NCBI GenBank assembly: GCA_964626845.1
Contig: CAZVGR010000005.1
Coordinates: forward strand, 36,557 to 100,556
Reading direction: 5' to 3'
Origin: an uncultured Anaerolinea sp.
Lineage (GTDB): Bacteria > Chloroflexota > Anaerolineae > JAAEKA01
DNA: 64,000 nt
Both the position numbers and the translations under genes were made by a program. Numbering within the stretch: the first letter of the stretch is position 1; the number at the start of each line of letters is the position of its first letter. Below are positions 1,355 through 30,646 of the stretch, one piece after another. Under the pieces are notes generated by a model. It had not been told where the DNA came from and made no database searches. It worked only from the letters and a program-made list of their open reading frames with translations.

Positions 1355-1389
1355 GGGGTCTCTGCGCGACAATCGTAGCTCGAAAAATG

Positions 1390-1530
1390 GTAACTGCTCA
1401 GCCGGCCGGTCAGAAACCGGGTTTTCTCGTTGGGCAATGATTTCTGAGCTTGCAAACGCATTGCTCGGGGCTATGATAGCCGCTTCCGCAGCAAAAACCC
1501 GGTTTCTCTAAGCCCAGCCTGAGCAGTAAC
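1390..1530. mobile_element. MITE-like element, family 2 (141 bp, imperfect ~35-bp TIRs GTAACTGCTCAG.../...CTGAGCAGTAAC), flanked by perfect 8-bp direct repeat GAAAAATG
   Basis: Near-identical 142-bp copy at 30449-30590. TSD GAAAAATG at 1382-1389 and 1531-1538. Internal inverted repeat GAAACCGGGTTTT/AAAAACCCGGTTTC. Confidence 0.8.
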
Positions 1531-1540
1531 GAAAAATGAT

Positions 1541-1619
1541 GATCCGTGCTCGGTGACCGATAGACGATGATCGGTGAAGCGCGGGCCGACCAGCGAATAT
1601 CGGTCACCGAGCACGGATC
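1541..1619 (-). terminator. Long hairpin (22-bp perfect arms GATCCGTGCTCGGTGACCGATA / TATCGGTCACCGAGCACGGATC, 35-nt loop) overlapping the stop of the PocR regulator gene; possible terminator or structured element
   Basis: Perfect inverted repeat read directly. On the minus strand it is followed by ATCATCATTTTT. Atypical for an intrinsic terminator (long loop). Confidence 0.3.
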
Positions 1620-2409
1620 ATTGTCCATTCGCCTGAGACGTGAGCTCCGCTATCCGTGCCAGCGTCTGCCGGGCTTGGTAGCTCTGATAACCAATGCTGG
1701 AGATGGCGTTGGCGATGGTTTGCAGGAGGGCCGTGATCTGTAACGCCTGCTCGTGCGAGATGACGGTGAGCGTATCCATGGCTTCTGTCAGCGCTTCGCC
1801 GGAGACGCCCAGTCGCTCCCCGGTGGCCAGGGCGCGCTGGCGAAACAACACAGGGTCAGGCGGCTCGGTGAAGAACTGGCCGGCCGTGACCAGGCCAAAG
1901 CGCAGCCGGTTGACGCTGACCGGCGCGCTGGCGTATTGGATGCCGGCGTGACAGACGTGGATCGCCGCGTCTTCCCTGTCCAGCAGCGCAATCGAGCGCC
2001 ACGACTCCTGGCAGGCCGCCATGCCCTCGGGCTGACTGTGGATGATCTGGCAAAAGCGGCTGCAGCGGCTGCACGGCGCGAAGGGCTGGCCCTCCAGGTC
2101 CGTGATGAAGGCCGCCACGCCCACCAACTGGGCGAACTGGTTTTGGATCGCTTGCAGCGTCGCGACGTCGATCAGATCGTCCAGCTCCAGGTTCACCAGA
2201 TCAGGTGCAGGCTCCTTGAAGCCAGACCTGGACGCCGGCTCGCCCTGCTGCCCGGCCAGCCAGCGATCGATGGCTTCGGCCGAGAAGCGCCACTGGCCGC
2301 CTATGCGCAGTGCGGGCAGCTCGCCGTCCTTGACCATGCGGTAGATGGTCACGCGGTCCAGTTGCAGGTGGTCTTGTAGTTCACGGGTAGTAAGTAGTCG
2401 GTCGGCCAT
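1618..2409 (-). CDS. Transcriptional regulator: N-terminal excisionase/MerR-like helix-turn-helix + C-terminal PocR sensory domain
   Basis: 263 aa. N-term LTTRELQDHLQLDRVTIYRMVKDGELPALRIGGQWRF (HTH_17-like). C-term PocR-like region with conserved cysteines (APCSRCSRFCQ ... VCHAG). Divergent from an AT-rich promoter region at 2410-2560. Confidence 0.7.
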   Translation of the reverse strand: MADRLLTTRELQDHLQLDRVTIYRMVKDGELPALRIGGQWRFSAEAIDRWLAGQQGEPASRSGFKEPAPDLVNLELDDLIDVATLQAIQNQFAQLVGVAAFITDLEGQPFAPCSRCSRFCQIIHSQPEGMAACQESWRSIALLDREDAAIHVCHAGIQYASAPVSVNRLRFGLVTAGQFFTEPPDPVLFRQRALATGERLGVSGEALTEAMDTLTVISHEQALQITALLQTIANAISSIGYQSYQARQTLARIAELTSQANGQ

Positions 2410-2560
2410 AGCTTACCCTCTGGATCAAGTGAGGTCTGGTAGCAGCATGGGGCCTTGAAAACAAGTTTGATTATGCTAGAGAATACGATTAAAGTAACTT
2501 TTTGTCAAATTTTATAAAATCATATATCATTCTGGTAAGAACGATAAGAAGGAGTTACCT

Positions 2561-2971
2561 GTGAAGATTGCAGTCGTCACTGATAATCAAACTACCATCA
2601 GTCAGCACTTTGGCCGCGCCCACTATTATCTGGTCTTCACCGTTGAGGATGGACAGGTCGTGCAGCAGGAGTTGCGTGACAAGCTGGGCCACGACCAGTT
2701 CCAGCATGAGGAGCACAGCCATCATGATCATGATCACGGCCATCAACAAGGGCATGGCTTCGGCCAGCACTCGCAGGACAAACACAGCCGCATGATGGCC
2801 AATCTGACCGACTGCCAGGTCTTGCTGGCCGGCGGTATGGGCATGGGCGCCCACGCGAACCTGGAAGCCATTGGGGTCAGGCCGATCCTGACCAGCGTGC
2901 GGGAGATCGACGCGGCGCTGCAAGCCTATCTGGCCGGCGAGCTGGCGGACCAGCCAAGGCTGCTGCACTAG
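2561..2971 (+). CDS. NifX/NifB-C-terminal (dinitrogenase FeMo-cofactor-binding family, PF02579-like) protein with a His-rich insertion
   Basis: GTG start preceded by AAGGAG. MKIAVVTDNQTTISQHFGRAHYYLVF is the hallmark N-terminus of this family. Insert HEEHSHHDHDHGHQQGHGFGQH. C-term DCQVLLAGGMGMGA. Confidence 0.7.
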   Translation: MKIAVVTDNQTTISQHFGRAHYYLVFTVEDGQVVQQELRDKLGHDQFQHEEHSHHDHDHGHQQGHGFGQHSQDKHSRMMANLTDCQVLLAGGMGMGAHANLEAIGVRPILTSVREIDAALQAYLAGELADQPRLLH

Positions 2972-3144
2972 GGCGATCCGCGGCGCGGCTGGAAACACCG
3001 GCGGTGGGCGTGGATTACCGAGTCTCCAATCTACGTTTACCCCGGTGTTCCCAGCCGCGGCTGATGTGCCCCCGTTTCTCCACTATACGCGTCTGCTGAC
3101 GCCCCCTCCAGTGACTGCGCAGAAGGTCATCGCAGCTTGGGCAG

Positions 3145-4302
3145 CTAGGCAGGGGCTAACTCCAACAACACCTGCTCCAAGGGCGCTTCTGGCGGGCCGG
3201 CCGGCAGCGTGAACCAGAAGGTACAGCCCTGGCCCAGCCCGGCGCTCTCGACTCCCACCTGGCCGTTGAGCTTGGTCACAATACGCTGTACGATGGACAG
3301 GCCCAGGCCGTGGCCGATCGCCTGACCTTGATCGATCCGGGTGAAAGCGCTATACAGCCTGGCTTGCTGCTCCGGCGTCAGGCCAGGTCCGTGGTCGCGC
3401 ACCCAAAAGCGCACGTAGCCATCGATCGGCTCGGTGGCGCCCAGCTCGATCTGCGCCGGGCTGCCGCCATATTTGATGGCGTTGCTGATATAATTCACCC
3501 ACACTTGCTCCAGCCAGGGGACATAGCCCAGCGCCGAAGGCCAGGTTTCTGGCGCCTGTATCTGCGCTCCGGCTTCTTTTGCTTCCCCCGCCAGGCGCTC
3601 CAGGGCTTCATGCACCGGCTGCTCCATGCTCACCGGCGCCACGCGCAGCTCCATCTGGCGAACCTCGGCCAGCAACAGCAGTTCTTTGGTGATGGTTGAC
3701 ATCTTGAGGAGGATCTCAGTCAGGCTGGCCAGAAAAAGCTGGCGGTCTTCCGGTGGATACAGATCCTCTGCGCCTTGAAGCAGATCGGCATAGCCCAAAG
3801 CCACCGCAATTGGGTTGCGCAGGTCATGGGCCACGGTGTGTGCATAGGCGTGCAGATCGGTGATCAGCTCATCGCGCTCGACAATCTGCTGCTCAAGCCG
3901 CCGCTGGAGGCTGCGCAGCGTGAGGTGAGTTTGCACCCGCGCCAGAATCTCCTCCAGTTGAAATGGCTTGGTAACATAGTCTACGCCGCCCGCGGTGAAC
4001 GCCTTGATCTTATCCTCGGTCTCGCTCAGCGCGCTGATGAACAGGACCGGAATGTCACGCGTGCGCGGGTCGGCTTTCAGCAACTTGCAAACCTCGTAGC
4101 CGTCCATGCCTGGCATCCGAATGTCCAGCAGAATCAGGTCGGGCGGCAAGGTCTGCGCGGCGGCCAGAGCCTGAGGACCACTGCGCACCGGCCGGGCTTG
4201 ATAGCCGTTTTCGGTCAGCATCTGAGACAGCAGACGCAGATTGGCCGAGGTATCGTCGACGACCAGAACACTGGCAAGACGATCAGTTGGTTGGGAGGTC
4301 AT
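3145..4302 (-). CDS. Response-regulator receiver fused to histidine kinase (REC-HisKA-HATPase)
   Basis: VLVVDDTSANLRLL...DLILLDIRMPGMDGYEV...KPF (REC), then HDLRNPIAV (H-box) and HATPase motifs (GLGLSIVQ). 8 bp downstream of the preceding kinase gene. Confidence 0.8.
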   Translation of the reverse strand: MTSQPTDRLASVLVVDDTSANLRLLSQMLTENGYQARPVRSGPQALAAAQTLPPDLILLDIRMPGMDGYEVCKLLKADPRTRDIPVLFISALSETEDKIKAFTAGGVDYVTKPFQLEEILARVQTHLTLRSLQRRLEQQIVERDELITDLHAYAHTVAHDLRNPIAVALGYADLLQGAEDLYPPEDRQLFLASLTEILLKMSTITKELLLLAEVRQMELRVAPVSMEQPVHEALERLAGEAKEAGAQIQAPETWPSALGYVPWLEQVWVNYISNAIKYGGSPAQIELGATEPIDGYVRFWVRDHGPGLTPEQQARLYSAFTRIDQGQAIGHGLGLSIVQRIVTKLNGQVGVESAGLGQGCTFWFTLPAGPPEAPLEQVLLELAPA

Positions 4303-4310
4303 GGTAATCC

Positions 4311-6493
<2,183 letters not shown>

Positions 6494-6497
<4 letters not shown>

Positions 6498-8449
6498 AAC
6501 GAGCTCTCTTGGTATTCTGGCGTATGATCTTCTTGGCGATAGCATTCATCAAGGGTGAAGTAGAAGCCAGCGCCTTGGGCAGGGGCGGCGTCGGCCCAGA
6601 TTTTTCCGCCGTGGCGGTGAATGATGCGCTGGACGATGGTCAGGCCGATGCCGGTGCCAGGGAACTCAGAAGCCTTGTGCATCCGCTGGAACGGGCCGAA
6701 CAGCTTTTGGGCGTAGGCAGGATCGAAACCGGCTCCGTTATCCCGCACCACAAATGCCGGCTGGCCATCCAGGTCAACCTGGCCGAACTCGATGCGCGCC
6801 TGCGCCGTCTTGCTGGTGAACTTGAAGGCGTTGTCCAGCAGGTTACTCAGCGCAATCTCCAGCAGGTTGGCGTCGCCGATGGCGGTCAGCCCCGGCTGGA
6901 TGACGAACGTCACCTGCCGCTGCGGGGCTGATGCTTGCAGCGTGGCGGTCAGCCGTGCGGCCATGGCGCTCAGGTCGACCGGCTGGCAGCGCATCTCGGC
7001 GCGCGCCAGCCGCGCCAGGTTGAGCAGGTCGTCGATCAGCCGGGCCATGCGTTGGGTCTCGGAACGCACCCGATGCAGGTAGCTTTGCGCCTGCGGGTCA
7101 AGCTGGTCACCGTAGTCTTCCAGCAGGGCCAGGCTCCAACCGTCGATCCCGCGCAGCGGCGAGCGCAGGTCGTGCGATACCGAATAAGAGAACGCCTCTA
7201 GCTCGCGGTTGGCCGCCTCCAGTTGGCGCGTGCGCTCCCGCACCCGCTGCTCCAGCTCGGCGTTCATCTGTTGAATTCTGGCCTCTGCCAGCCGGCGTTC
7301 GGTCACATCTTCCCCGATGCTGGCGACGCCAATGACCTCGCCTTTGGTGTTGCGCAGGATGGTGTTGTTGAACCGCACCCACCGCACATCACCCGAGCGG
7401 GTCAGCAGCGGATTTTCGGCATGGGCGGGCATATCTTCGCTGCGCAGCCGGGAGAGGATGGTCTCCTTCACCTGCTGCCAGTTGGACGGCGCAAAGCGCG
7501 GGAAGTACTCCTGGCCCAGCACTTCCTCGCGCGGCCAGCCGGTCAGTTGCAGCAAGTAATCGTTGCAGAACGTGACGCGGCCCTCCAGGTCCAGCGTAAC
7601 CGCCACCAAATCTACTTGCTCCAGCAGCTCGCGGTAGCGCGCCGCGTTGAGCCGGGAAAGCGCCCAGTAGTTCTGGGCAAAAAAGACCGAGCTGAGCATC
7701 AGGGCCGAAAGAGTCAGGCTGACAGCCAGGCTCCTCTGGGCGCTGGTCGCTTCAAGGCGCCAGTGTTGCTCGGTGGGCGCAAAGAACAGGTTCAAAACCT
7801 GGGCGTCTTGCAGGTTGATACTTTCTCTGACTTCATCGCCCGCGTGGCGCTCTGTCCAGTTCTCCGACACGTAAACGGCGTTTGCTTCGTTGAGGAGCTG
7901 CACGGCGTAATCTGCCAGGAGGTCTTCGGTCAGCGGCGCGGTGAAGCTGGGCAGATCGACGATGCCCAGCACGAAGCCCTCCAGCCGGCTGCCGGTATAG
8001 ACGGGCGCCAACAGCCTGATCTGGGAGGGCAACAGGGGGATGGCGCTGGCTAACTGGCCTACCAGGCCCTCTCCTGCGGCCGTTGGCACACTGAGGCGCA
8101 GCATGTAGTCCCGGTCGATCCAATGGATGGTCTCAAGGCCCGCAAACGAGTCGATGTAAAACGCGGCGTCCTTGATCCACAACTCCTCTTTCTGGGGGGT
8201 ATCCAGCCGGCCGCGGCCGGCCAGCCGATTAACGGCGTTGACGATGCCGCGATAGCGGATCTCGGCGTCGCTGGAAAGCGCAATCGCGTTGGCTTCGGTT
8301 TTTGCGCGCAGTTGCGCGAGGTTGCTTGCCTCTTGTGCTTTCCAGACAACAATTGAAAGGGCCGTCAGACCGACCGCCAGCACAGCCAGGAAGAGATTGC
8401 TGGCCAGAAAAGGCTGGGATCTGCCAGACTGCGTGTTCGAGGGGGCCAT
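6494..8449 (-). CDS. Sensor histidine kinase with N-terminal TM + extracytoplasmic sensing domain, PAS, HisKA, HATPase
   Basis: TM LFLAVLAVGLTALSIVVW, ~230-aa periplasmic region, second TM, PAS, H-box SHDLRSPLRGI, HATPase (GTGIGLTIVQ). 22 bp downstream of the solute-binding protein gene. Confidence 0.8.
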
Positions 8450-8470
8450 GCGCCGTGCGCTCCTTGGAGC

Positions 8471-10021
8471 CTAGGACCGTTGTTTTTGCCAGGCCGTGTT
8501 CCAGATATCCACGATCGTCCTCGCGCCAAGCTGCTCCAGCTCAGCCAGGTAGGCATCCCAATCCTGGTCGATATCCAGCTCACCGGTGATGAACTGCATG
8601 CTGGTTCGGGCTACGTAGGGGGAAAGTCGTTCGTTGATCAGGCGGATAACCTCAATCGACTGGGCATCCAGCGTGAGCTGCGGGCTGAGCTCAGCCGTCT
8701 CATTGGCCGCAAGGGATCGATCCAGAAAGGCGACGATCTCGTCCGGCTTTTTGTAGTCCTCGAACTCCTCGTTCTCAACCAGGTTGAACATCTGGTTAAA
8801 GCCGTACTCTGCGGCGACATCCAGCGTACCGTCGGGGTTTTTGGGGGTCTTGATGTGGGGCAGGAAGACCTTGCCATCGGCGGTGTTTTCATAGGTCAGG
8901 CCCTCGACGCCCCACACGGTCAGGGTGCGGCCTTCATCGGAATAGATCGCCCAGTCCAAAAAACTGAGCAGCGCAGGCAAGCGGGGATCGTCGGCCATGC
9001 GCGAGGAGATGGCCAGCCCTTTGCGGAAGGGGTCTACGGCAGGCAGCGCCCTGATGCCGATGGTGCTTGCTGGCACAGGCAGAGACGCCCATTCGGCGTC
9101 GGGGAAGCCGTTTTCGTGCAGCGCGTTGTTCCAGTTGGCAAAGCCCGACGTGATCCAGGTGACTGTGACGAAAGCCCGACCGTCTTGCAGCTTGGCATAG
9201 AATTTATCGTCGCTCTGGGTGAACAGCTCTGGATCCAGGATGCCAGCGTCGTAGCTGCGCCGCAGGAAGGAGTACATCGCGCGGTAATTCTCTGTAGCCG
9301 GAGCATACTCCCAGCGGTCCTCGGCGGCGTTGTAGGCGCTGACGCCAGCCCAGCCGGCCGGGATGCCGTAGCCCGCGCCCATCATGGCGAACAAATGCGC
9401 GCCGCCCCACAGTGTGCTGAGCGGAGTCGACTCAGGGTAGAGTTCTTTCAGCTTCACCAGGGCAGCAAACAACTCGTCGTAGGTGGTCGGCGTAGGAATC
9501 TGATGCGCCTCGAACAGATCGCGGCGGTAGATCCACTGCTGCACCTGAATCCTGCGTTGATAGCCGGGCAGCAGATAGTACTTGCCGTTGGCCAGGCGCA
9601 GTTTGTCCAGCTCGCCTTGCAGATTGTTCTGCTCGATGTAGGCCTGGAAATAGGGCATCTGGTCTACATAGTCACTAATTGGCAGCAGCACTCCGGCGTT
9701 AGCATAGCTTTCGATGGGCTTGGGCCAGACCTTCAGGATGATGTCGGGTGGATCGCCCGACTCGAGAGCCTGGACAACGGCTTTTTCGTAGTCCGAGTCA
9801 GCCCCCAGGCGCACATCGAGACTGACGTTCTGGCGTCGTTTGTACTCCTCCAGAATCAGCCAGTCTGGTCGAAAAGGGGCGATCTCACTGTTGTTGAACA
9901 GCACCGAAAAGGTCACCGGTTCAGCGGGTTGAATGGGCTGAGCTGGCTGGGCAGGCGGGGGGACGCACCCAACGGCAAGCAACCCGAGCAGCAAGGCAAT
10001 CACCAACCTTCTGGCGCGCAT
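8471..10021 (-). CDS. Extracellular solute-binding lipoprotein (ABC-type family-1 sugar-binding-protein fold), orphan: no permease/ATPase genes nearby
   Basis: MRARRLVIALLLGLLAVGC (lipobox), PQ-rich linker, ~490-aa SBP-like body. Immediately upstream of and co-oriented with sensor kinase 6494-8449. Confidence 0.7.
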   Translation of the reverse strand: MRARRLVIALLLGLLAVGCVPPPAQPAQPIQPAEPVTFSVLFNNSEIAPFRPDWLILEEYKRRQNVSLDVRLGADSDYEKAVVQALESGDPPDIILKVWPKPIESYANAGVLLPISDYVDQMPYFQAYIEQNNLQGELDKLRLANGKYYLLPGYQRRIQVQQWIYRRDLFEAHQIPTPTTYDELFAALVKLKELYPESTPLSTLWGGAHLFAMMGAGYGIPAGWAGVSAYNAAEDRWEYAPATENYRAMYSFLRRSYDAGILDPELFTQSDDKFYAKLQDGRAFVTVTWITSGFANWNNALHENGFPDAEWASLPVPASTIGIRALPAVDPFRKGLAISSRMADDPRLPALLSFLDWAIYSDEGRTLTVWGVEGLTYENTADGKVFLPHIKTPKNPDGTLDVAAEYGFNQMFNLVENEEFEDYKKPDEIVAFLDRSLAANETAELSPQLTLDAQSIEVIRLINERLSPYVARTSMQFITGELDIDQDWDAYLAELEQLGARTIVDIWNTAWQKQRS

Positions 10022-10065
10022 GGGACTACTCCTTTGTGCTGATTACAGCGTGAACAAAGTCTTTG

Positions 10066-10131
10066 AGGTGCCCGGCACTTGATGCGAGGTCGTCATTACG
10101 TGCGAATCGTCGCATCAAGTGCCGGGCACCT
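10066..10131. mobile_element. MITE-like palindromic element, variant subfamily (core GGTGCCCGGCACTTGATGCGA ... TCGCATCAAGTGCCGGGCACC)
   Basis: 22-bp perfect inverted arms sharing the GTGCC(C/G)GGCAC core with family 1. Related copy at 45796-45899 in opposite orientation. No clear TSD. Confidence 0.5.
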
Positions 10132-10159
10132 ATGCGCAGTTACTTGGTTGACGCTGTAC

Positions 10160-13201
<3,042 letters not shown>

Positions 13202-13234
13202 CCTTCACCTGCCTTTGTGATAAGCCCAACGCCA

Positions 13235-17038: not shown

Positions 17039-19469
17039 CGTGGGCCGCCTTTGCCCTGCCGTTGAGAGCGGCAAGAATTGCGTCGTAGTCGTAGTCGTTG
17101 ATCCACACCCGCAGGGCATCGGCCAGCGCGGGCTGCACAGGCTGGGCGGCTGCGGCCAGATCGTCGAGCTGCGCTGTGTCGGCCGCCAGCGCGGCCTGGC
17201 GCACCTGATCGCTCCAGCCGGCCGGCAGAGCGGCGAGATCGAAAAGCTGCCGGGCGCCTTCTTCCGGATTGACTGGCGCATAAAGCATGCGCACGCCCAG
17301 ATGCCTGACCAGACAGTCGACAATCTCGTCGGCGCGGAAGGGCTTTTGCAGGAAATCGTCGCAACCGTCGGCCAGCACGGCGGCGCGCTCCTCTTCCAAC
17401 ACGCTGGCCGAAAGGGCGATGATCACCGTGGCCTGGCCTTGGGGGGTGGCCTTGATGCGCCGCGTCGCCTCGTGGCCATCCATCACCGGCATGCGCATGT
17501 CCATCCAGATCAGGTGCGGCTGCCACGCCTCCCACTGTTGCACAGCTTGCACGCCGTTCTCAGCGGTGCGCACGGCAAAGCCCCACTGGCTGAGCCACTG
17601 ATACAACAGTTGCCGGCTTGCCGGGTGATCCTCCACCACCAACAGGCGGTAGGCTGGCTGGTCAGGCTCCAGGCCAAGGACGCGCGGCCCGCCTGCGCGC
17701 AGACCGGCGCGTTCCTCAGGTTCCTCGACCGGTTCCAGGGGGATGCTGAACTGGAAGAGGCTGCCCTGGCCCGCCACGCCAGCGCTAAAGGCCGTCAGCT
17801 CGCCGCCCAGCAGGTGGACATACTGGCGGCTGATGGCCAGGCCCAGCCCGGTCCCTTCGCGGGCAGCGTGACCGTTGCCAGCCTGCACGAAGGGATCAAA
17901 AATAGTCGCCAGCTCCTCAGGTGCAATGCCGGGGCCGCTGTCCTGCACGGCGAAAAGCAGCCGCCCGCTGCCGTCGTCGGCCCAACTCACCGACAGCTCG
18001 ACCAGGCCGGTCTCGGTGAACTTCACTGCGTTACCCATCAGGTTGATCAGCACCTGGCGCAGCTTGCCCTGGTCGCCATGCACCCAACGAGGCGCATCGG
18101 GCCAGAGCGTGAGAACCAGCAGCAGCCCTTTGGCTTCAGCGCGCAGCCGGAACAGATCGACCAGGTCTTCCAACAGTTGGTGCAGGTTGAAGTCGACCTG
18201 GTTGAGCGTGCTGCGGCCGGCCTCGATCTTAGCCAGGTCCAGCACATCGTTGATCAGGCTTAAGAGGTGGGCGCCGCTGTGATTGATGATGGCCAGGGTG
18301 TCCGCCTGTTGGCGTGAGAGTCCGGGATCTCGGCTCATCAGCTCGGAGAAGCCCAGAATGGCGTTCAGCGGCGTGCGCAGCTCGTGGCTCATGCTGGCCA
18401 GGAAGATGCTCTTGGCGCGATTGGCGGCCTGGGCCACATCTCTGGCGTGAGCCAGCTCTTCTTCGTTCTGTTTTCGCTGGGTGATATCGTGCAGTGTGGC
18501 CAGCCGGCCGGTTGCGTGCTGAAAACGGTCAACCAACGGCGCCACATACACGTCATAGATGTGCTGGCAGCCCAGGGGCGTGCATAGCTCGCGATGGGTT
18601 TCCTGGTCACAGTCCAGCACCTCGTTCAGCTCAGGCCAGGAGCGCAGCGCCAGCGCAGCCGGCTGGCCGATGACGGCGGGGGACAGTTGCGTGATCCGCT
18701 GCGCGGCCGGGTTGATGTCCACGATGCGCCGCTGAGGGTCGAGCACGATCACGCCGTCGGCCATGCTCTCAACCAGCTTGTCGCGCGCAATGGGCGCCAC
18801 ATCCAGCAGGTGATAGTAAAACAAACCAACGGCGAACATCAGCCCGGACAGGGTGAAGACGAAGGGGGTGATGTCCAGGTCAGGAAAAGGGCTGAGCCCG
18901 GCGATGCTGATGACGTTGCCTATCCACGGCAAAAGCGCGCCCAGGAGGATAACGCCGGTCTGGGGGCGATAAAAAGCCGGGGTGCGCCGATAGGCCCGCA
19001 CCAACAGCGCCACTGCCAGCAACAGCAAGCCATAGGAATAAAGGGCATTGAACCAGAACGCCGGGCCGCCATTGAGGATTGAGCCGGTGGTGCGCCGGCC
19101 GCCGTAAAACAGGCCGTGCCAATCGTCGGTCCAGAGCAGGATCAGAGTCAGCGCCGGCGCCACGCAAAGCAACAGGAGCCTGCGCCGCGTCAGCCAGTGC
19201 GCACGGCCGGTGTATTGCAAGACGAAGATCAAAAACGCGACAGGAATGAGCACAACCCCGAAGTAGGTGGCATCCAGCCAAAAATACTGCTTTGGCAGAT
19301 CTGAAACATGCCAGCGGATGGCGTAGGTCAGGGACCAAATCACCAACGCTGACATGAAGAGTATCATCGCCGGCGCGCCGGGGGCGCTGCGACGACGCCA
19401 ACTGAGCGCCACAACTGCGGCCGCCATAAGGGCTGAAAGGATGAGAGCCAGGGAATAGTGCCAGTTCAT
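17028..19469 (-). CDS. Hybrid sensor histidine kinase with N-terminal 7TM sensor domain (PAS, HisKA, HATPase, REC, C-terminal tail)
   Basis: Seven predicted TM helices in the first ~220 aa, PAS, H-box MSHELRTPLNAILGF, REC (HLIWMDMRMPVMDG), tail WINDYDYDAILAAL. 4-bp overlap with the upstream gene. Confidence 0.85.
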   Translation of the reverse strand: MNWHYSLALILSALMAAAVVALSWRRRSAPGAPAMILFMSALVIWSLTYAIRWHVSDLPKQYFWLDATYFGVVLIPVAFLIFVLQYTGRAHWLTRRRLLLLCVAPALTLILLWTDDWHGLFYGGRRTTGSILNGGPAFWFNALYSYGLLLLAVALLVRAYRRTPAFYRPQTGVILLGALLPWIGNVISIAGLSPFPDLDITPFVFTLSGLMFAVGLFYYHLLDVAPIARDKLVESMADGVIVLDPQRRIVDINPAAQRITQLSPAVIGQPAALALRSWPELNEVLDCDQETHRELCTPLGCQHIYDVYVAPLVDRFQHATGRLATLHDITQRKQNEEELAHARDVAQAANRAKSIFLASMSHELRTPLNAILGFSELMSRDPGLSRQQADTLAIINHSGAHLLSLINDVLDLAKIEAGRSTLNQVDFNLHQLLEDLVDLFRLRAEAKGLLLVLTLWPDAPRWVHGDQGKLRQVLINLMGNAVKFTETGLVELSVSWADDGSGRLLFAVQDSGPGIAPEELATIFDPFVQAGNGHAAREGTGLGLAISRQYVHLLGGELTAFSAGVAGQGSLFQFSIPLEPVEEPEERAGLRAGGPRVLGLEPDQPAYRLLVVEDHPASRQLLYQWLSQWGFAVRTAENGVQAVQQWEAWQPHLIWMDMRMPVMDGHEATRRIKATPQGQATVIIALSASVLEEERAAVLADGCDDFLQKPFRADEIVDCLVRHLGVRMLYAPVNPEEGARQLFDLAALPAGWSDQVRQAALAADTAQLDDLAAAAQPVQPALADALRVWINDYDYDAILAALNGRAKAAHDDL

Positions 19470-22400
19470 CGGGCTTGATCCAGATCAGACAGGAGGGGCT
19501 CTGCTGGCTCGGCGGCGGCCAGCAAAGCCAGGATCGCGTCATAGTCATAGACATCCAGCCAATCGCGCAACACATCGGCCAGCACAGGCCACTGCTCGTT
19601 CACATCGTCTGCCAGGCGCAGCAGGCGAGTAGCGTCGGCTGCGATAGCCGCCTGTTGCACCTGGTCTCGCCAGGCAGGGGGCAGGCTGGCGAGGTCGATG
19701 CCTGCCAGCTTCTGCTGGCTGGCCTGCGTTTGCTTGTCTGGCGTTGCAGCATAGAGCATGCGCACGCCCAGGTGATTGACCAGGCAGTCCACGATCTCGG
19801 CCATGCGGAAGGGCTTGCGCACGAAGTCATCGCAGCCGCTGGCCAGCATCAATGCTTTCTGTTCAGCCAGAACGCTGGCCGAGATGGCGATGATGACGGT
19901 GTCCTGGCCGTTGGGCATGGCCTTGATGCGCCGTGTAGCCTCATAGCCGTTCATCACCGGCATGCGGATGTCCATCCAGATCAGATGCGGCCGCCAGTCC
20001 TGCCAGACATCGAGGGCCTCCAGGCCGTTGTCGGCTGTGCGCACGGCGAAGCCCAACTGTGTCAGCAGGCTGGTCAGCAGCCGCTGGCTTTCGGGGCGAT
20101 CCTCGACGACCAGCAGGCGATATTCAGGCTGGCCCGGCTCCAGGCCGATGGCATGTTCGCTGGGCGTGGCGTGTTCGTGGGTGAACTCAGCCACTTCCGG
20201 TAAGGCAATGGCAAACTCGAAGCGGCTGCCCTGGCCCGGCTCGCCTGTGCTGGCAGCGATCAGATCGCCGCCCATCAAGCGCACAAACTCGCGGCTGATG
20301 GGCAGGCCCAGGCCGGTGCCCTGCGGCGCAATGTGCTCGTTGCTTGACTGCATGAAAGGCTCGAAAATCACCGTCAGATCGTCGGCCGGAATGCCCAGGC
20401 CGGTGTCCTGCACGGTGAAGACCACGCGGCCGCTGCCATCGTCCGCGCAGCGCACTGTCAGGTCGACGCTGCCTGCGTCGGTGAACTTGAACGCGTTGTC
20501 CAGCAGGTTGATCAACACCTGGCGCAGCTTGCCTTCGTCGGCATGAACCAGACGAGGGACGTCAGCAGAGCGGGCGCAGCGCAGCTCGATATTCTTGACA
20601 ATCGCACGCAGGCCGAACATCTCGTCCAGCTCATCCAGCATTCGGTGCAGGTCGAAGCTATCTTCTTGCAGCGTGATGCGCCCCGACTCGATTTTGGACA
20701 CGTCTAACACGGTGTTGATCAGGCCCAGCAGATGCTCGCCGCTGCGGTTGATGATGGTCAGATTCTCCCGTTGGTCCGGCGTCAACCCAGGGTCGCGCGC
20801 GATCAGCTCGGAGAAGCCCAGGATAGCGTTGAGCGGCGTGCGCAGCTCGTGACTCATATTGGCCAGGAACTGGCTTTTGGCGCGGTTGGCGGCCTCAGCG
20901 GCCTCCTTGGCCTCGGCCAGTGCGGCTTCGGCCAGTTTGCGCTCGGTGATGTCGTGGCCCTGAGCGATGGTGGCGACCACAGTCTGGCCATCGGGGCCAT
21001 AGAGCATGGCCGAGTTCCACAGCAGCGTGTGCAGCTTGCCAGTGCTGTCTTCGATGGTGATCTCCACCGTTTCCCAGCGGCGCCCCGTGGTGGTGTAGAT
21101 GTAGTTCAAGGAGGCTTGGCGCTGCTCGACCGGAAAGAGAAGCCCCAGCCCCTGGCCCAGCATGTCGCTGGCGCTGCGGCCGGTCAGCCGCTCGAATGCC
21201 TTGTTGAACTGGGTAATCTTATAGTCAGCGTCCCAGACAATGATCGGCGCGTTGGCGTAGTTCAGCAGGTTTTGCAGGTATTCACTGGTCTCGTGCAGGG
21301 CATGCTCGACGCGGGTGAGCTCGGTGATTTCACGGGCAAGCTGGATGCGGCTGTAGCTGAGGTTAGAGATCATTTCGGCGAACTGCGAGTAAAACTGCAT
21401 GATCTCGTCGACGCGTTGATGGCTGAAACGCGGCGCCCGCGCCAGGGCTGCCAGATAGGTCTTCTCCTCGAAGCCGTAGAACTGAGCCTGAGCGCGGAAG
21501 AGCTCGATGTCAGGTTCCTCATCCTCAAAGAAGAACTGGCTGAGAAACAGGTTGCCAATGGGGTTGCCAGCTACCACGATGGGAGTGGCCACGTCCTGCA
21601 TGTGATTCCTGCATTTATAGATCTTGAAGTTGCCCGGCTCGGCTCCCTGCGCTAAAACCGTGGCGCTTTCGATGCAAAAGCTGCACGACACAGGGTCCGC
21701 CCGGTGGAACCGGGTGCAGATATCCTGCCGGCCGGTGGAGACCAGGATGTTGCCACGCATATCCATGATCGAGATGCCTATCTGGGTGATGGCGTAGAGA
21801 TGATCCAGCATGGCCTGGACGGCCGGCAGGTCGATGATGTCTCGCAGCTCCAGCTTGCTGATGTCCGCATCGGGGGTGAGAATGGCGTCGAGCCGCGCCC
21901 GCACCTGATCCTTTTCGCGGCGCAGGTTCGCCTCGCTCTCACGCAGCGCATCCTCAGCGCGCTTGCGTTCGCTGATGTCGCGCGCCAGGCCGCAGATATA
22001 GGCGCGGTCATGGAACTGAATATAGTTGGTCTGCACTTCAACAGGCAGCAACTCGCCTGTCTTCTTACGATGCCACCCTTCGATAGCCAGCGACTTCTGG
22101 CGCTGCATCTCCTGCCATCGGTCTTGCCACTGTTCAGGCGTCACATCCGCGTCCACCTGCCACACAGACATGCTCAGCAGCTCGTCCTGGGAATAGCCCA
22201 GTTGCGCACAAGCAGCTCTGTTGACATAGGCCAGACGACCATCGGCAGTTGCCCAGTAGGCCGCGTCGGCGCTGTGATCGACGACGAACTGGGTGAAGTG
22301 CAGCCGCTCCTCAGCCTGAATTCGCTCGGTGATGTCCTGGATGGTGGCCACTGCGTACTGCACTGAGCCGTCAGGCTGGCGCACACAGCCCACCGAGAGC

Positions 22401-23230
22401 ATGACCCAGAGGATGGTCCCGTCCTTGCGAATGAAGCGTTTCTCCAGCCCATAGGTGTCGATTTCGCCGGCCAGCAGCCGTTGGAACTGCTGCAAATCGG
22501 CGGGCAGGTCATCAGGGTGGGTCAGCTCAGCCCAGGTCATGCCGGCCAGCTCTTCGGCAGAATAGCCGAGCATGGCGCAGATGCTATGGTTGACCTCCAG
22601 CCATCCTTTTTCCAGCGACGTAACAGCCAGGCCGACATAGGGGGCATCAAAGTAACTGCGCAGTTGCGCCTCGCGCTCGGTCAGCCTGGCGGCGGTCTGC
22701 TCGGCGCCCCTCTTCGCCTGCTCCAAAGCGGCGGTACGCTCTTGCACCCTGTCTTCCAGCAAGGCGCGCTCAGCAGCCAGCTCGCGCAGCGCCTCCCGCC
22801 GCTGCCGCACGGCTGTGAGCAGATAAGCTGTCAGCAGCAGAAAGAAGATCAGCAGGACCAGCGCGCCGATAGCCGGCCACACGATGTCCCGCCAATGCGA
22901 AAGCGGCCTTGGGTGTTCGATGCGGGCGTTACCCTGCGGCAGAGCGCGTTTCGCAGTAGGGCTATCGAGGACTGCGCCGGAGAATTCAGTCGGGGGGTGT
23001 GAGGCCGCCAGCGCATCAAGCAGGCTGCGTTGACTCCCTGTGTACCGTGAGTAGCTTAGAGAGGCTGCATTGAGCGCCAACTTGCTGGGGGGCTGGTCAG
23101 CGGCGCTCTGCGCTTCGACGGCGGCGGGGGCGGCCATGGCCAGCGTCACAAGCACGAACAAACACAGCGTTGGCCTGTTGATCCAGTGGGGCAGGCGGCA
23201 AGACATCGTTCGAAGATAGGAAAAGATCAT
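19466..23230 (-). CDS. Hybrid sensor histidine kinase with signal peptide/periplasmic segment, TM, PAS domains, a PocR sensory domain, HisKA, HATPase, REC, C-terminal tail
   Basis: Signal-like MSCRLPHWINRPTLCLFVLVTLAMAAPAAVEA, TM WPAIGALVLLIFFLLLTAYLL. PocR-like block with cysteines (CTRFHRADPVSCSFC...YKCRNH). H-box MSHELRTPLNAILGF, REC, tail WLDVYDYDAILALL. Confidence 0.8.
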   Translation of the reverse strand: MIFSYLRTMSCRLPHWINRPTLCLFVLVTLAMAAPAAVEAQSAADQPPSKLALNAASLSYSRYTGSQRSLLDALAASHPPTEFSGAVLDSPTAKRALPQGNARIEHPRPLSHWRDIVWPAIGALVLLIFFLLLTAYLLTAVRQRREALRELAAERALLEDRVQERTAALEQAKRGAEQTAARLTEREAQLRSYFDAPYVGLAVTSLEKGWLEVNHSICAMLGYSAEELAGMTWAELTHPDDLPADLQQFQRLLAGEIDTYGLEKRFIRKDGTILWVMLSVGCVRQPDGSVQYAVATIQDITERIQAEERLHFTQFVVDHSADAAYWATADGRLAYVNRAACAQLGYSQDELLSMSVWQVDADVTPEQWQDRWQEMQRQKSLAIEGWHRKKTGELLPVEVQTNYIQFHDRAYICGLARDISERKRAEDALRESEANLRREKDQVRARLDAILTPDADISKLELRDIIDLPAVQAMLDHLYAITQIGISIMDMRGNILVSTGRQDICTRFHRADPVSCSFCIESATVLAQGAEPGNFKIYKCRNHMQDVATPIVVAGNPIGNLFLSQFFFEDEEPDIELFRAQAQFYGFEEKTYLAALARAPRFSHQRVDEIMQFYSQFAEMISNLSYSRIQLAREITELTRVEHALHETSEYLQNLLNYANAPIIVWDADYKITQFNKAFERLTGRSASDMLGQGLGLLFPVEQRQASLNYIYTTTGRRWETVEITIEDSTGKLHTLLWNSAMLYGPDGQTVVATIAQGHDITERKLAEAALAEAKEAAEAANRAKSQFLANMSHELRTPLNAILGFSELIARDPGLTPDQRENLTIINRSGEHLLGLINTVLDVSKIESGRITLQEDSFDLHRMLDELDEMFGLRAIVKNIELRCARSADVPRLVHADEGKLRQVLINLLDNAFKFTDAGSVDLTVRCADDGSGRVVFTVQDTGLGIPADDLTVIFEPFMQSSNEHIAPQGTGLGLPISREFVRLMGGDLIAASTGEPGQGSRFEFAIALPEVAEFTHEHATPSEHAIGLEPGQPEYRLLVVEDRPESQRLLTSLLTQLGFAVRTADNGLEALDVWQDWRPHLIWMDIRMPVMNGYEATRRIKAMPNGQDTVIIAISASVLAEQKALMLASGCDDFVRKPFRMAEIVDCLVNHLGVRMLYAATPDKQTQASQQKLAGIDLASLPPAWRDQVQQAAIAADATRLLRLADDVNEQWPVLADVLRDWLDVYDYDAILALLAAAEPAEPLLSDLDQAR

Positions 23231-23504
23231 CGCAGGGGGCTTTCATAAGCTCAGCAGTCCACAACTCACCCCCGTAGTATGCACTCTGGTGCGCCAAAGG
23301 ACTACGGGCCGAATCGTGGACTACTGACTGACCTGCTCCAGCGGCCAGCGTCTGAGTGGGGGGTAATTACTGGGCCGCAGGAGTATCCACGTCGTCTTGC
23401 CACATTGTAGCACGCTGCTATCACTTAAGCAACAGTGCATTTATTCACCTTGGACGCCGGGCGCTTGAGCCCACACCCATCGATGACCAGCGCCCGGCGC
23501 CTTA

Positions 23505-28982: not shown

Positions 28983-29049
28983 GATGTCGATCCTTAGCTG
29001 GTATCTGGGTGGGTAACTGACGGCGAGTAGAATGACGGGCTGTTACGCG

Positions 29050-29112
29050 GTTACTACTCAGGTGCCGGGCACTTGCACCCCAAGTGCCCGGCACCTGGGC
29101 CTGAGTAGTAAC
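29050..29112. mobile_element. MITE-like element family 1 (63 bp, minimal copy: TIRs GTTACTACTCAGGTGCCGGGCACTTG / CAAGTGCCCGGCACCTG-GGC-CTGAGTAGTAAC) with perfect 8-bp TSD GTTACGCG
   Basis: Direct repeats GTTACGCG at 29042-29049 and 29113-29120. Lies in the divergent promoter region between the surface-giant gene and the phosphoesterase gene. Confidence 0.8.
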
Positions 29113-29340
29113 GTTACGCGTAGATATTCAAGCTACTGACCAGCATCCAACAGCCTGCTGGCTGTCCAGTTTTGCGAGCAAGTCCTGGCAATTCGCTTGA
29201 AAGATACATCACAAGTATAAAGACTCCCAGGCGTCAAAGTCAATAGGACATTAGTACCATCTACTGTATCGAGGACTGGCGCTATTTCATCATGAAATTC
29301 CGGAATCGAGCCAGATGCCCATACGCTGGGCGGCGATCCC

Positions 29341-29369
29341 TTGCGCAATGACCGCAACAGGGCTATAAT
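29341..29369 (+). promoter_or_regulatory. Sigma-70-like promoter TTGCGC-N17-TATAAT upstream of metallophosphoesterase gene
   Basis: TTGCGC 29341-29346, 17-nt spacer, TATAAT 29364-29369. ~80 nt upstream of ATG 29451. Local AT-rich context. Confidence 0.5.
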
Positions 29370-29450
29370 GGCCGCAGTTGCACAGCAGACCATGACAGGA
29401 GGAGCCAGAGCGCTTGAGGCGGCAGCGCCTGACGTTCCGGAGAACTCTCA

Positions 29451-30446
29451 ATGACCAACTACAATGCCACAGTGGCCAGACGCCTGGCCGAAGTCCATGC
29501 CAACGCCACGGTCGACGATGGTCGCGAGCTGGCCGATCTGCGCCTGATCATCTTTTCTGACTTGCACAAAGGCCAGCGCGATGGCGCCGACGACTTCCAG
29601 CCCTGCGAGCAGACCTACCTGGCCGCGCTGGCCCAGTACTGGCAGCAGGGCTTCGAGCTGTTTCTACTGGGAGACGTGGAGGAGCTGTGGGAGAACTGGC
29701 CCGGTCCTGTGATTCGCGAGTACAGTGCGGTGCTCAACCAGGAGTTGCTCTTTGCTGAGAGTCGCACCCCCGCCCGCTATCTGCGCTTTGTGGGCAACCA
29801 CGATGACCTGTGGTACGACCGCGATCAGGTGCAGCGCCATCTGGACCCCTTTCTGGCCGGCCAGCCAGTGATCGAGGGCCTGCGTTTGACGGTACACGAA
29901 CAAGGGCAAGAACTGGGCGAGCTGCTCTTCCTGCACGGGCACCAGGGAACCCCCGACTCGGATCGCTTCGCTCGTTTATCTGCGCTTCTTGTCCGCTACA
30001 TCTGGCGCCCCATCCAGCGCGCCTTCAACGTCCGCCTCAATACCCCCAGCGCCAACTTTGAGCTGCGCCAGAAGCATGAGCTGGCCATGTACAGCTACGC
30101 CGCCAGCCAGCCGCGCCTGGTGCTCGTCGCCGGCCACACCCACCATCCCGTCTGGGAGGGCCTGGGCTTCGAGCAGGCCATGCAACAGATGGCGGTGCGA
30201 GGTCTGACGCCCCAGGTCGACCCGGCCTGGCTGAACGAGCAGATGGCCGAGGCTGTGGCGCTGCCCGGCCGCAAGCCCAGCTACTTTAACACCGGCTGCT
30301 GCGCCTACGTCGATGGCTCCATCACCGGCATCGAGATCGCCGACGGCGAGATTCGCCTGGTGCGCTGGATCGCAGCCGCCCAGCCCACACGCACAGTGCT
30401 CTTCAGCGCGGCGCTGCGCGATGTCTTGGCTGCAGTGGCCGGATAA
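29451..30446 (+). CDS. Calcineurin-like metallophosphoesterase
   Basis: Motifs IFSDLHKG, GDVEELW, GNHDD, HGHQG, GHTHH in canonical order. Confidence 0.8.
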   Translation: MTNYNATVARRLAEVHANATVDDGRELADLRLIIFSDLHKGQRDGADDFQPCEQTYLAALAQYWQQGFELFLLGDVEELWENWPGPVIREYSAVLNQELLFAESRTPARYLRFVGNHDDLWYDRDQVQRHLDPFLAGQPVIEGLRLTVHEQGQELGELLFLHGHQGTPDSDRFARLSALLVRYIWRPIQRAFNVRLNTPSANFELRQKHELAMYSYAASQPRLVLVAGHTHHPVWEGLGFEQAMQQMAVRGLTPQVDPAWLNEQMAEAVALPGRKPSYFNTGCCAYVDGSITGIEIADGEIRLVRWIAAAQPTRTVLFSAALRDVLAAVAG

Positions 30447-30448
30447 TC

Positions 30449-30590
30449 GTAACTGCTCAGCCGGCCGGTCAGAAACCGGGTTTTTCTCGTTGGGCAATGA
30501 TTTCTGAGTTTGCAAACGCATTGCTCGGGGCTATGATAGCCGCCTCCGCAGCAAAAACCCGGTTTCTCTAAGCCCAGCCTGAGCAGTAAC
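30449..30590. mobile_element. MITE-like element, family 2 (142 bp) with perfect 8-bp TSD GGATAATC, which includes the phosphoesterase stop codon
   Basis: Near-identical to the copy at 1390-1530 (a few substitutions and one extra T). TSD at 30441-30448 and 30591-30598. Confidence 0.8.
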
Positions 30591-30617
30591 GGATAATCAA
30601 CGACAACGCGCGCAGCT

Positions 30618-30646
30618 TTGCGCTTTTGCCCGCTGTAACTTATAAT
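30618..30646 (+). promoter_or_regulatory. Sigma-70-like promoter TTGCGC-N17-TATAAT upstream of Ala/Gly-rich protein gene
   Basis: TTGCGC 30618-30623, 17-nt spacer, TATAAT 30641-30646. Same hexamers as the promoter at 29341. Confidence 0.45.

What the first reader, a model, noticed from the sequence alone, without database searches (positions are those of the whole stretch)
1390..30590. MITE family 2 (141-142 bp) with related termini and perfect 8-bp TSDs; one copy duplicated the stop codon of a gene
Copies at 1390-1530 and 30449-30590 are near-identical (a few substitutions and one extra T). Both have ~35-bp imperfect TIRs beginning GTAACTGCTCAG and ending CTGAGCAGTAAC. They are flanked by GAAAAATG/GAAAAATG and GGATAATC/GGATAATC. 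The termini differ from family 1 by one or two bases (GTTACTGCTCAGG vs GTTACTACTCAGG), so the same transposase may mobilise both. The 30449 copy inserted exactly at the TAA of the metallophosphoesterase gene, and the TSD contains the stop. The 1390 copy sits between a multihaem cytochrome gene and the PocR regulator gene. Spurious ORFs in the supplied track (1410-1628 minus, and part of 30305-31459 minus) are translations of this repeat.
Basis: seen in the sequence. Interest (0 to 1): 0.7.

Follow-up and report, generated by a model that had tools for sequence, protein, structure and literature searches.

The report
Small IS66-type mobile repeats (MITEs)
Two near-identical 141-142 bp repeats are non-coding "hitch-hiker" transposons whose ends and 8-bp insertion footprint match a known family of jumping genes (IS66 family, ISBst12 group), so this is a real but ordinary kind of mobile DNA, from a family that had apparently not been described.

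Summary
Copies at 1390-1530 and 30449-30590 are 139/142 identical. Their flanks are unrelated. Both carry GTAACTGCTCAG.../...CTGAGCAGTAAC termini and perfect 8-bp target-site duplications (GAAAAATG, GGATAATC). The second duplication holds the TAA stop of a 331-aa metallophosphoesterase gene.

An orthologous locus (83% protein identity) lacks exactly this element plus one duplication copy. The same terminus pair occurs in more than 114 places in Chloroflexota and Acidobacteriota MAGs. Of 94 such elements, 56 have perfect 8-bp duplications, and none does in a shifted control.

The termini match ISDge4 of Deinococcus geothermalis, an ISBst12-group IS66-family element with TIRs GTGACTACTCAGCA/GTAACTGCTCAGCA and an 8-bp direct repeat, which has been shown to transpose. 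They also match 70 of 80 metagenomic relatives of its transposase, and one full-length copy sits in a Ktedonobacterales genome.

"Family 1" shares these termini. It has four full copies, one 63-bp copy and one remnant in the window.

No matching transposase lies in the window, and the direct parent IS was not found.

Verdict: a genuine MITE, mobilised in trans. It is a new member of a known kind, of modest interest.

The parts
1390..1530 (+). F2a: 141-bp MITE copy. It lies in the 263-bp spacer between the PocR regulator gene's stop and the multihaem cytochrome gene's start (both on the minus strand), 35 bp upstream of that ATG.
1382..1389 (.). Left target-site duplication of F2a (GAAAAATG)
1531..1538 (.). 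Right target-site duplication of F2a (GAAAAATG)
30449..30590 (+). F2b: 142-bp MITE copy, inserted directly after the stop codon of the 331-aa metallophosphoesterase gene. It lies about 20 bp upstream of the conserved promoter-like region (TTATAATGCAG.GCGTCATA) of the next gene.
30441..30448 (.). Left TSD of F2b (GGATAATC). It contains the working TAA stop (30444-30446) of ORF 29451-30446.
30591..30598 (.). Right TSD of F2b (GGATAATC), the duplicated copy of the stop-containing octamer
29050..29112 (.). Family-1 mini-copy (63 bp, only the two arms). Termini are GTTACTACTCAGG at both ends and the TSD is GTTACGCG.
31469..31579 (+). Family-1 copy (111 bp) with slightly degenerate termini and no TSD
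35300..35411 (-). Family-1 copy (112 bp) in inverted orientation. The TSD is CTCTGTGA (35292-35299 and 35412-35419), and one terminus carries a 2-nt insertion.
57120..57230 (+). Family-1 copy (111 bp), TSD CTGGCTGC
63547..63658 (+). Family-1 copy (112 bp), TSD GTTGCATG
10059..10143 (.). Decayed family-1-like remnant. The inner arms GGTGCCCGGCACTTGATG are kept and the termini are degenerate.
   Evidence: nhmmer E=0.011

Best explanation
F2a and F2b are two independent and fairly recent insertions (98% identical) of one miniature inverted-repeat transposable element (MITE). The element codes for nothing. It keeps only what a transposase needs: the 12-14 bp termini GT(A/T)ACTGCTCAG(G/C)C and, in this subfamily, a conserved inner inverted motif GAAACCGGGTTTTT.

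These termini are those of the ISBst12 group of the IS66 family, which are single-ORF insertion sequences of about 1.45-1.6 kb encoding a DDE_Tnp_IS66 transposase.

Inferred mechanism: a full-length element elsewhere in the cell supplies the transposase in trans. The transposase binds the two MITE ends and inserts the element at staggered cuts 8 bp apart. Repair of the gaps gives the 8-bp target-site duplication. Targets tend to be AT-richer than their surroundings.

Family 1 (GTTACTACTCAGG termini, also 8-bp TSDs) is an older set of MITEs that use the same type of transposase.

F2b landed on the octamer that holds the stop codon, so the duplication rebuilt the stop. The protein keeps its native 331 residues, and the downstream promoter-like region is untouched.

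Shown: the anatomy, the TSDs, the empty site, the wide distribution, and the match of the ends to full-length ISs. Inferred: mobilisation in trans, and which transposase does it.
For: 1. **Structure and TSDs.** Searches show the two copies, their termini and their perfect 8-bp duplications.
2. **Independent insertions.** The flanks are about 50% identical. The orthologous locus L202/L203 (83% protein identity, same 225-aa downstream gene) lacks the element plus one TSD, exactly between the stop codon and a conserved TATAAT-containing block.
3. **Repeat behaviour in assemblies.** Logan unitigs carrying the gene end 26-28 nt inside F2b and inside the family-1 mini-copy, as expected for a multi-copy repeat.
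4. **Distribution.**
   - Of 94 elements, 56 have perfect and 23 one-mismatch 8-bp TSDs, against 0 of 92 control flank pairs taken 20 bp further out.
   - There are at least 12 internal-sequence subfamilies.
   - F2 has full-length relatives at about 72-75% identity in four other Anaerolineae genomes.
5. **Match to a characterised IS.**
   - ISDge4 is an IS66-family, ISBst12-group element with one 449-aa transposase. It has been observed to transpose and is reported with TIRs GTGACTACTCAGCA/GTAACTGCTCAGCA and an 8-bp direct repeat (PMC12898284).
   - I verified a copy on plasmid pDGEO01 (L119:12998-14450, TSD GCCCAATC).
   - Its transposase matches Pfam DDE_Tnp_IS66, zf-IS66 and DUF6444.
6. 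**Match to the wider IS group.** Of 80 metagenomic loci encoding relatives of that transposase (38-88% identity), 70 are bounded by GT.ACT.CTCAG inverted repeats. Positions 1-12 are at least 89% conserved except positions 3 and 7, the same two positions that vary among the MITEs. Nine to ten have perfect 8-bp TSDs.
7. **Presence in Chloroflexota.** L210:1458-3444 in a Ktedonobacterales MAG is a full-length copy with TIR GTAACTATTCAG and TSD GCCACTTG.
8. **Source organism.** The window is from an Anaerolineae-like Chloroflexota genome, judged by the names of homologues.
Against: - No IS66-type transposase is encoded in the window or in about 800 kb around 114 related MITEs (tblastn).
- No full-length IS carries F2's inner motif GAAACCGGGTTTTT or matches F2 or F1 beyond about 19-21 of the first 26 bases. 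The direct parent and the resident helper are therefore unidentified.
- Most short metagenomic IS contigs lack matching TSDs. Chimeric assembly of repeats probably explains this, but I did not show it.
- One family-1 copy lacks a TSD.
- The right terminus begins GTTAC, not the canonical GTAA.
- Trans-mobilisation has never been shown experimentally for this IS group.
Confidence: 0.85

Rival explanations
1. It is a MITE, but a different transposase family that also makes 8-bp duplications moves it (for example ISL3, IS1595, IS256 or IS6). The resemblance to ISBst12-group ends would then be coincidental.
For: No IS66-type transposase was found next to any MITE, and the parent IS is unknown.
Against: The first 12-14 bases are identical to those of 70 independent full-length ISs of one transposase clade, including the same two variable positions. 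By my own recollection of ISfinder, not tested here, the other 8-bp families start with GG or other motifs, not GTAAC.
Confidence: 0.05
2. The copies are relics that can no longer move. The helper transposase has been lost from this genome, and the elements persist only as neutral or co-opted hairpins.
For: There is no transposase in 64 kb. Family-1 copies are only 74-85% identical to each other, with degenerate termini. One lacks a TSD and one is a remnant.
Against: F2a and F2b differ at only 3 of 142 positions and have perfect termini and TSDs, which argues for recent movement. Only 64 kb of the genome was seen.
Confidence: 0.08
3. It is not mobile DNA. It is a repeated structured element, such as a REP/BIME-like palindrome, a small RNA gene or a terminator, kept by selection or spread by a RAYT-type enzyme or by recombination.
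For: The element folds into a long hairpin with z about -5 to -6. The left arm has a small hairpin followed by a T-run that resembles a terminator. The inner motif is strongly conserved between species.
Against: - Fixed 8-bp duplications of unrelated target sequences occur at 2 of 2 copies here and 56 of 94 elsewhere.
- The orthologous locus is empty.
- There is no Rfam match.
- The covariation term is 0.05, essentially none.
- The terminator-like stem and the promoter-like hexamers are not conserved in relatives.
Confidence: 0.02
4. The two copies arose by segmental duplication or gene conversion, not by separate insertions.
For: The copies are 98% identical.
Against: Similarity stops exactly at the termini. 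Each copy has its own different 8-bp duplication, and the flanks are about 50% identical.
Confidence: 0.01

Closest known systems
ISDge4 of Deinococcus geothermalis (IS66 family, ISBst12 group; PMC12898284, PMC8369957)
   Same: The terminal sequence matches: IRR GTAACTGCTCAGCA against F2's left end GTAACTGCTCAGCC (13 of 14), and IRL GTGACTACTCAGCA against family 1's GTTACTACTCAGG. Both make an 8-bp target duplication. Both tolerate A or G at terminus position 7.
   Different: ISDge4 is 1469 bp (1453 bp between the 14-bp termini in the copy I read) and encodes its own 448-449-aa DDE_Tnp_IS66 transposase. F2 is 141-142 bp and non-coding. Beyond the first 13-14 bp there is no similarity. The host phylum differs (Deinococcota against Chloroflexota).
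ISBst12-group ISs from metagenomes and a Ktedonobacterales MAG
   Same: The terminus consensus is the same: GTAACT(A/G)CTCAG(G/C)C. TSDs are 8 bp where they can be read. Some ends match the MITE ends for 16-19 consecutive bases, for example L153's left repeat GTTACTACTCAGGCATAG against family-1 copy 57120, and L168's GTAACTGCTCAGCCGG against F2.
   Different: These are autonomous elements of 1.45-2 kb. None carries F2's GAAACCGGGTTTTT motif or family 1's GGTGCCGGGCAC motif.
Classical IS66 family (IS66, IS679: tnpA-tnpB-tnpC)
   Same: They share the transposase domain family (DDE_Tnp_IS66), a GTAA start of the inverted repeat and an 8-bp direct repeat (PMC11946415).
   Different: The canonical repeat continues GTAAGCG and is 20-30 bp long. 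These elements have three ORFs and are 2-3 kb. The MITE ends follow the ISBst12-group variant GTAACT.CTCAG.
Other bacterial MITEs (for example Correia elements of Neisseria, MITEPsy1/2 of Pseudomonas syringae; PMC3189936)
   Same: Same kind of object: a short non-coding element with terminal inverted repeats and a TSD, present in many intergenic copies and folding into a hairpin.
   Different: They have different termini, TSD lengths and presumed helper transposases. I found no paper describing an IS66- or ISBst12-derived MITE family, or any MITE family of Anaerolineae.

Membership tests
MITE (non-autonomous derivative of a DDE insertion sequence) | Short (under about 600 bp) and without coding capacity | tested here: met
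   The copies are 141 and 142 bp. The only ORFs across them are read-throughs of the repeat, one of which conflicts with a conserved gene on the other strand.
MITE (non-autonomous derivative of a DDE insertion sequence) | Terminal inverted repeats | tested here: met
   11 of the 12 terminal bases are complementary, and there is a second inner inverted block.
MITE (non-autonomous derivative of a DDE insertion sequence) | Target-site duplication of constant length that differs between copies | tested here: met
   The TSDs are GAAAAATG and GGATAATC. Among relatives, 56 of 94 are perfect and 23 of 94 have one mismatch, against 0 of 92 shifted control pairs with one mismatch or fewer.
MITE (non-autonomous derivative of a DDE insertion sequence) | Presence/absence at orthologous sites (empty site) | tested here: met
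   L202/L203 lack F2b plus one TSD copy at the same position. This is a between-species comparison (83% protein identity), not a within-population polymorphism.
MITE (non-autonomous derivative of a DDE insertion sequence) | Many copies per genome | tested here: inconclusive
   The window holds 2 F2 copies and 5-6 family-1 copies in 64 kb, and unitigs break inside the repeats. The rest of the source genome could not be read.
IS66 family, ISBst12 group (as source of the ends) | Inverted repeat starts with GTAA | tested here: met
   The left end is GTAACT. The right end is GTTACT, one mismatch. Position 3 is also variable in full-length members, A in about 80%. The GTAA rule is cited from PMC11946415.
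IS66 family, ISBst12 group (as source of the ends) | 8-bp direct target repeat | tested here: met
IS66 family, ISBst12 group (as source of the ends) | Terminus sequence shared with verified full-length members | tested here: met
   13 of 14 bases match the ISDge4 IRR. 70 of 80 transposase-bearing loci carry GT.ACT.CTCAG ends.
IS66 family, ISBst12 group (as source of the ends) | A cognate DDE_Tnp_IS66 transposase present in the same genome | not testable with these tools
   None is in the window or in 114 related loci. The IS group does occur in the phylum (L210).
IS66 family, ISBst12 group (as source of the ends) | Internal ends of the MITE derived from a specific parent IS | tested here: not met
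   No IS locus carries the F2 or family-1 subterminal motifs, and the best end matches are 19-21 of 26. This lowers 'deletion derivative of a known IS', not 'uses that transposase'.
REP/BIME elements (RAYT-associated) | 20-40 bp palindromes with a GTAG or CGTC end tag and no target duplication | tested here: not met
   The element is 141 bp, has GTAAC ends and has 8-bp TSDs.
Any curated RNA family (Rfam 15) | Match at the gathering score | tested here: not met
   Only one tRNA in the window reaches threshold. Thirteen relatives show no covariation.

The most novel reading that the evidence does not exclude
In the F2 subfamily, the inner motif GAAACCGGGTTTTT(C) and its inverted partner are nearly invariant in five Anaerolineae genomes, while the spacer to the terminus and the centre of the element drift. 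This motif is absent from every full-length IS examined.

It could be a second, host- or element-specific binding site or a regulatory module, for example a two-way terminator or a protein landing pad. In that case these MITEs would act as portable regulatory cassettes. That would bear on the copy sitting 35 bp upstream of a multihaem cytochrome gene, next to its PocR-type regulator.
Probability: 0.1. Interest if true: 0.5.

Novelty: new member of a known kind. Interest (0 to 1): 0.3.

Why it matters
- **Annotation.** These repeats produce spurious ORFs (two in this window) and break short-read assemblies. The unitigs that carry the neighbouring gene end inside them. Masking the family would improve gene calls and binning for Anaerolineae and related MAGs.
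- **Transposon biology.** The ISBst12 group of the IS66 family is poorly studied, and its first observed transposition was reported only in 2026. A large natural set of non-autonomous elements marks out the sequence its transposase needs: about 12-14 terminal bases, with two tolerated variable positions. The 63-bp mini-copy with a perfect TSD suggests a very small substrate is enough.
- **Host biology.** This is modest. One copy sits just upstream of a multihaem cytochrome gene, and one sits between a stop codon and the next promoter-like region. No effect on expression is shown.

Tried and rejected
- **Full-length IS near the MITEs.** I looked for terminus pairs 0.4-7 kb apart in the window and in 114 genome loci and found none. 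I found only larger non-autonomous elements of 394 and 257 bp. ORFs that recur across those loci are aminotransferases, ABC ATPases and the like, not transposases. tblastn with four transposases found nothing.
- **Rfam.** Only a tRNA reaches gathering score.
- **Structure conservation.** Thirteen F2-subfamily members give a covariation term of 0.05. The stems are simply invariant inverted repeats.
- **Promoter and terminator scans.** A weak TTGCAA-16-TATGAT and a small hairpin with a T-run lie inside F2. Neither is conserved in relatives, so I do not build on them.
- **Parent IS through the inner motif.** GAAACCGGGTTTTT occurs only in F2-type MITEs, and in none of the IS-bearing loci fetched.
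- **Viral contigs.** There are no matches to the terminus pair.
- **Empty site for family-1 copy 31469.** That intergenic region is too diverged to align.
- **First guess at ISDge4's position.** The stretch of pDGEO01 I fetched first (245-294 kb) had no copy. The neighbouring stretch did.
- **Close relatives of ISDge4's transposase.** They are almost all from Deinococcus. A more distant query was needed to reach Chloroflexota.
- **TSD length.** Nine bp was considered, because both F2 copies have a C before the octamer. The family-1 copies rule it out.

Full report
**1. The observation**

F2a (1390-1530, 141 bp) and F2b (30449-30590, 142 bp) match at 139 of 142 aligned positions, differing by two substitutions and one T. 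The 92-100 bp on either side are only about 50% identical, which is unrelated sequence.

Each copy starts GTAACTGCTCAGCCGG and ends with the complement of GTTACTGCTCAGGCTG. A second inverted block lies about 22-36 bp in from each end (GAAACCGGGTTTT / AAAAACCCGGTTTC). Each copy is bracketed by its own perfect 8-bp direct repeat: GAAAAATG for F2a and GGATAATC for F2b.

Allowing one mismatch, the 12-mer GTWACTRCTCAG occurs 14 times in the window against 0.5 expected, and none of 100 shuffles reached 14. Those hits, an inner-arm search and an nhmmer profile define the related family 1:

| Copy | Size | TSD | Note |
|---|---|---|---|
| 31469-31579 | 111 bp | none | termini slightly degenerate |
| 35300-35411 | 112 bp | CTCTGTGA | inverted orientation |
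| 57120-57230 | 111 bp | CTGGCTGC | |
| 63547-63658 | 112 bp | GTTGCATG | |
| 29050-29112 | 63 bp | GTTACGCG | only the two arms |
| about 10059-10143 | remnant | not readable | termini decayed |

The family-1 flanks fix the duplication length at 8 bp, not 9.

**2. Gene context**

F2a lies in the 263-bp spacer between a PocR/HTH regulator gene (1618-2409, minus strand) and a lipoprotein-type multihaem cytochrome gene. The cytochrome's ATG is at 1354 on the minus strand, 35 bp from the element.

F2b follows ORF 29451-30446. That ORF has no Pfam hit itself, but its homologues are named metallophosphoesterase, carry PF00149, and are mostly 331 residues long as here. Its TAA stop lies inside the left GGATAATC.

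ORFs 1410-1628(-) and 30305-31459(-) both translate the repeat. The second overlaps a plus-strand 225-aa gene that is also called, in the same position, in related contigs.

**3. Evidence that the element is an insertion**

A contig from a relative (L202/L203; 83% protein identity, same downstream 225-aa gene) aligns through the end of the gene. It aligns again from about 20 bp after the right TSD, through a conserved block TTATAATGCAG.GCGTCATA. It lacks exactly the MITE plus one TSD copy. The relative stops at TGA in the same codon position, so the insertion left the protein length unchanged and the downstream promoter-like block intact.

Short-read unitigs that carry this gene end 26-28 nt inside F2b and inside the family-1 mini-copy. 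That is how assemblers treat multi-copy repeats.

**4. Distribution**

I scanned one genome per species for ACTGCTCAGSC, a gap of 98-128 nt, then GSCTGAGCAGTWAC. The hosts, as labelled, were:
- mostly Chloroflexota: many Anaerolineae/Anaerolineales, Ardenticatenales, Thermoflexia and Ca. Villigracilis;
- several Acidobacteriota;
- a few MAGs labelled Moorella, Heliomicrobium or Syntrophomonadaceae.

Of 94 complete elements, 56 have perfect 8-bp TSDs, 23 have one mismatch and 2 have two mismatches. Of 92 control octamer pairs taken 20 bp further out, none has one mismatch or fewer. TSDs are 41% G+C against 57% in the flanks.

With the termini removed, the elements fall into at least 12 subfamilies by internal sequence. 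F2 belongs to a 138-142 bp subfamily with members at about 72-75% identity in Anaerolineae clx_CAG2, SSC4, Anaerolinea sp. CH3 and others. None of the loci fetched comes from the source genome. Viral contigs hold no match.

**5. Which transposase**

A full-text search for the terminus found one relevant paper. ISDge4 of Deinococcus geothermalis is an IS66-family, ISBst12-group element with a single 449-aa transposase. Its TIRs are GTGACTACTCAGCA and GTAACTGCTCAGCA, and its direct repeat is 8 bp. It was seen to transpose into a carotenoid gene (PMC12898284; size and copy number in PMC8369957).

I read a copy on plasmid pDGEO01, L119:12998-14450. It has those termini, the TSD GCCCAATC, and a 448-aa ORF matching DDE_Tnp_IS66, zf-IS66 and DUF6444. 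Two relatives behave the same way:
- L121:2877-4301 has the TSD TCTGCTGA.
- L120:77-1939 has the TSD TCAAGAAC and carries a passenger ORF.

An alignment of ISDge4-like transposases then pulled 80 metagenomic loci at 38-88% identity. Seventy of them are bounded, 1.2-3.3 kb apart and mostly about 1.5-1.6 kb, by GT.ACT.CTCAG inverted repeats. Positions 1-12 are 89-100% conserved except two. Position 3 is A in about 80% of ends. Position 7 is A in 60-65% and G in the rest. These are the same two positions that distinguish F2's two ends from each other and F2 from family 1.

Several single ISs carry A at one end and G at the other, so one enzyme evidently accepts both. Some IS ends match MITE ends for 16-19 consecutive bases. 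Nine to ten of the ISs have perfect 8-bp TSDs. Most of the others sit on contigs of about 2 kb, where chimeric flanks are likely, but I did not test that.

The group also occurs in the host phylum. Relatives of one GC-rich member are named 'IS66 family transposase [Ktedonobacterales bacterium]'. In that MAG, L210:1458-3444 is a 1987-bp element with TIR GTAACTATTCAG and TSD GCCACTTG. The general IS66 rule, a repeat starting GTAA(GCG) and an 8-bp direct repeat, is cited from PMC11946415.

**6. What was not found**

- There is no IS66-type transposase in the window or in the roughly 800 kb around the 114 related MITEs.
- No full-length IS carries F2's GAAACCGGGTTTTT or family 1's GGTGCCGGGCAC motif.

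The helper in this genome and the direct parent are therefore unknown. The remainder of the source contig (119,962 bp) could not be read.

**7. Alternatives**

- A structured RNA or REP-like element is contradicted by the TSD statistics, the empty site, the absence of Rfam hits and a covariation term of 0.05.
- Segmental duplication is contradicted by the flanks.
- Another 8-bp-TSD transposase family is unlikely, given the end match to 70 independent ISs of one clade.
- The copies may be immobile relics. That fits family 1 (74-85% pairwise identity, degenerate termini) better than F2 (98% identical).

**8. Verdict**

I found no published description of an IS66- or ISBst12-derived MITE family, or of MITEs in Anaerolineae. 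I therefore class it as a new member of a known kind. It is useful for annotation and for defining the transposase's substrate, but it is not surprising.

The stop codon inside the TSD is a neat consequence of the 8-bp duplication, not a new mechanism.

Noticed in passing
window 1540-1620: A perfect 23-bp inverted repeat (TGATCCGTGCTCGGTGACCGATA ... TATCGGTCACCGAGCACGGATCA) with a 35-nt spacer lies directly beside F2a and overlaps the stop codon of the PocR regulator gene. It is the only copy in the window. It could be a terminator, an operator or another kind of small palindromic element.
   Followed up: partly
window 49440-52034 (-): The RuvB gene is interrupted by an intein with a LAGLIDADG homing-endonuclease domain (Pfam RuvB_N, AAA_lid_4 and RuvB_C, plus Intein_splicing and LAGLIDADG_3).
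   Followed up: no
window 4311-23230 (-): A run of five large paralogous genes shares 64-86% identical repeated blocks (repeat families D1-D16). They look like a tandem array of multi-domain sensor proteins next to a response-regulator/kinase gene at 3145-4302.
   Followed up: no
window 35502-37556 (+): A 684-aa protein holds four tandem rhodanese domains. The DNA shows four direct repeats of about 450 bp (repeat families D4 and D6).
   Followed up: no
L207:3497-3753 and L205 (orthologous locus, 79% protein identity): At the same intergenic position where the window has F2b, this relative has a tandem array of a roughly 21-bp unit (CTCGACTCCGCGCCGCTTTCC). The spacer after this gene's stop codon seems to accept different insertions.
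   Followed up: no
L120:77-1939: An ISDge4-like element with a perfect 8-bp TSD (TCAAGAAC) carries an extra ORF after the transposase. It ends in a 41-bp unit made of two facing termini (GTAACTGCTTAGCAC...GTGCTAAGGAGCTAC). This may show how mini-elements arise at an IS end.
   Followed up: partly
L037:7270-7663 and L109:6654-6910: Larger non-coding elements (394 and 257 bp) have the same type of termini and perfect 8-bp TSDs. The non-autonomous family therefore spans at least 63-394 bp.
   Followed up: no
L067:6967-7096, L069:6410-6553, L109:28-157: In three elements the two 8-bp flanks are perfect reverse complements of each other instead of direct repeats. Two of the three lie within 70 bp of a contig end, so an assembler folding back through the hairpin is the likely cause. 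The third is internal and unexplained.
   Followed up: partly
window 30605-30660 and the orthologous loci (alignment A5): A block TTATAATGCAG.GCGTCATA upstream of the 225-aa Ala/Gly-rich gene (30761-31438) is invariant in relatives with 79-83% protein identity, while the rest of the spacer is not. It is probably that gene's promoter or leader.
   Followed up: no
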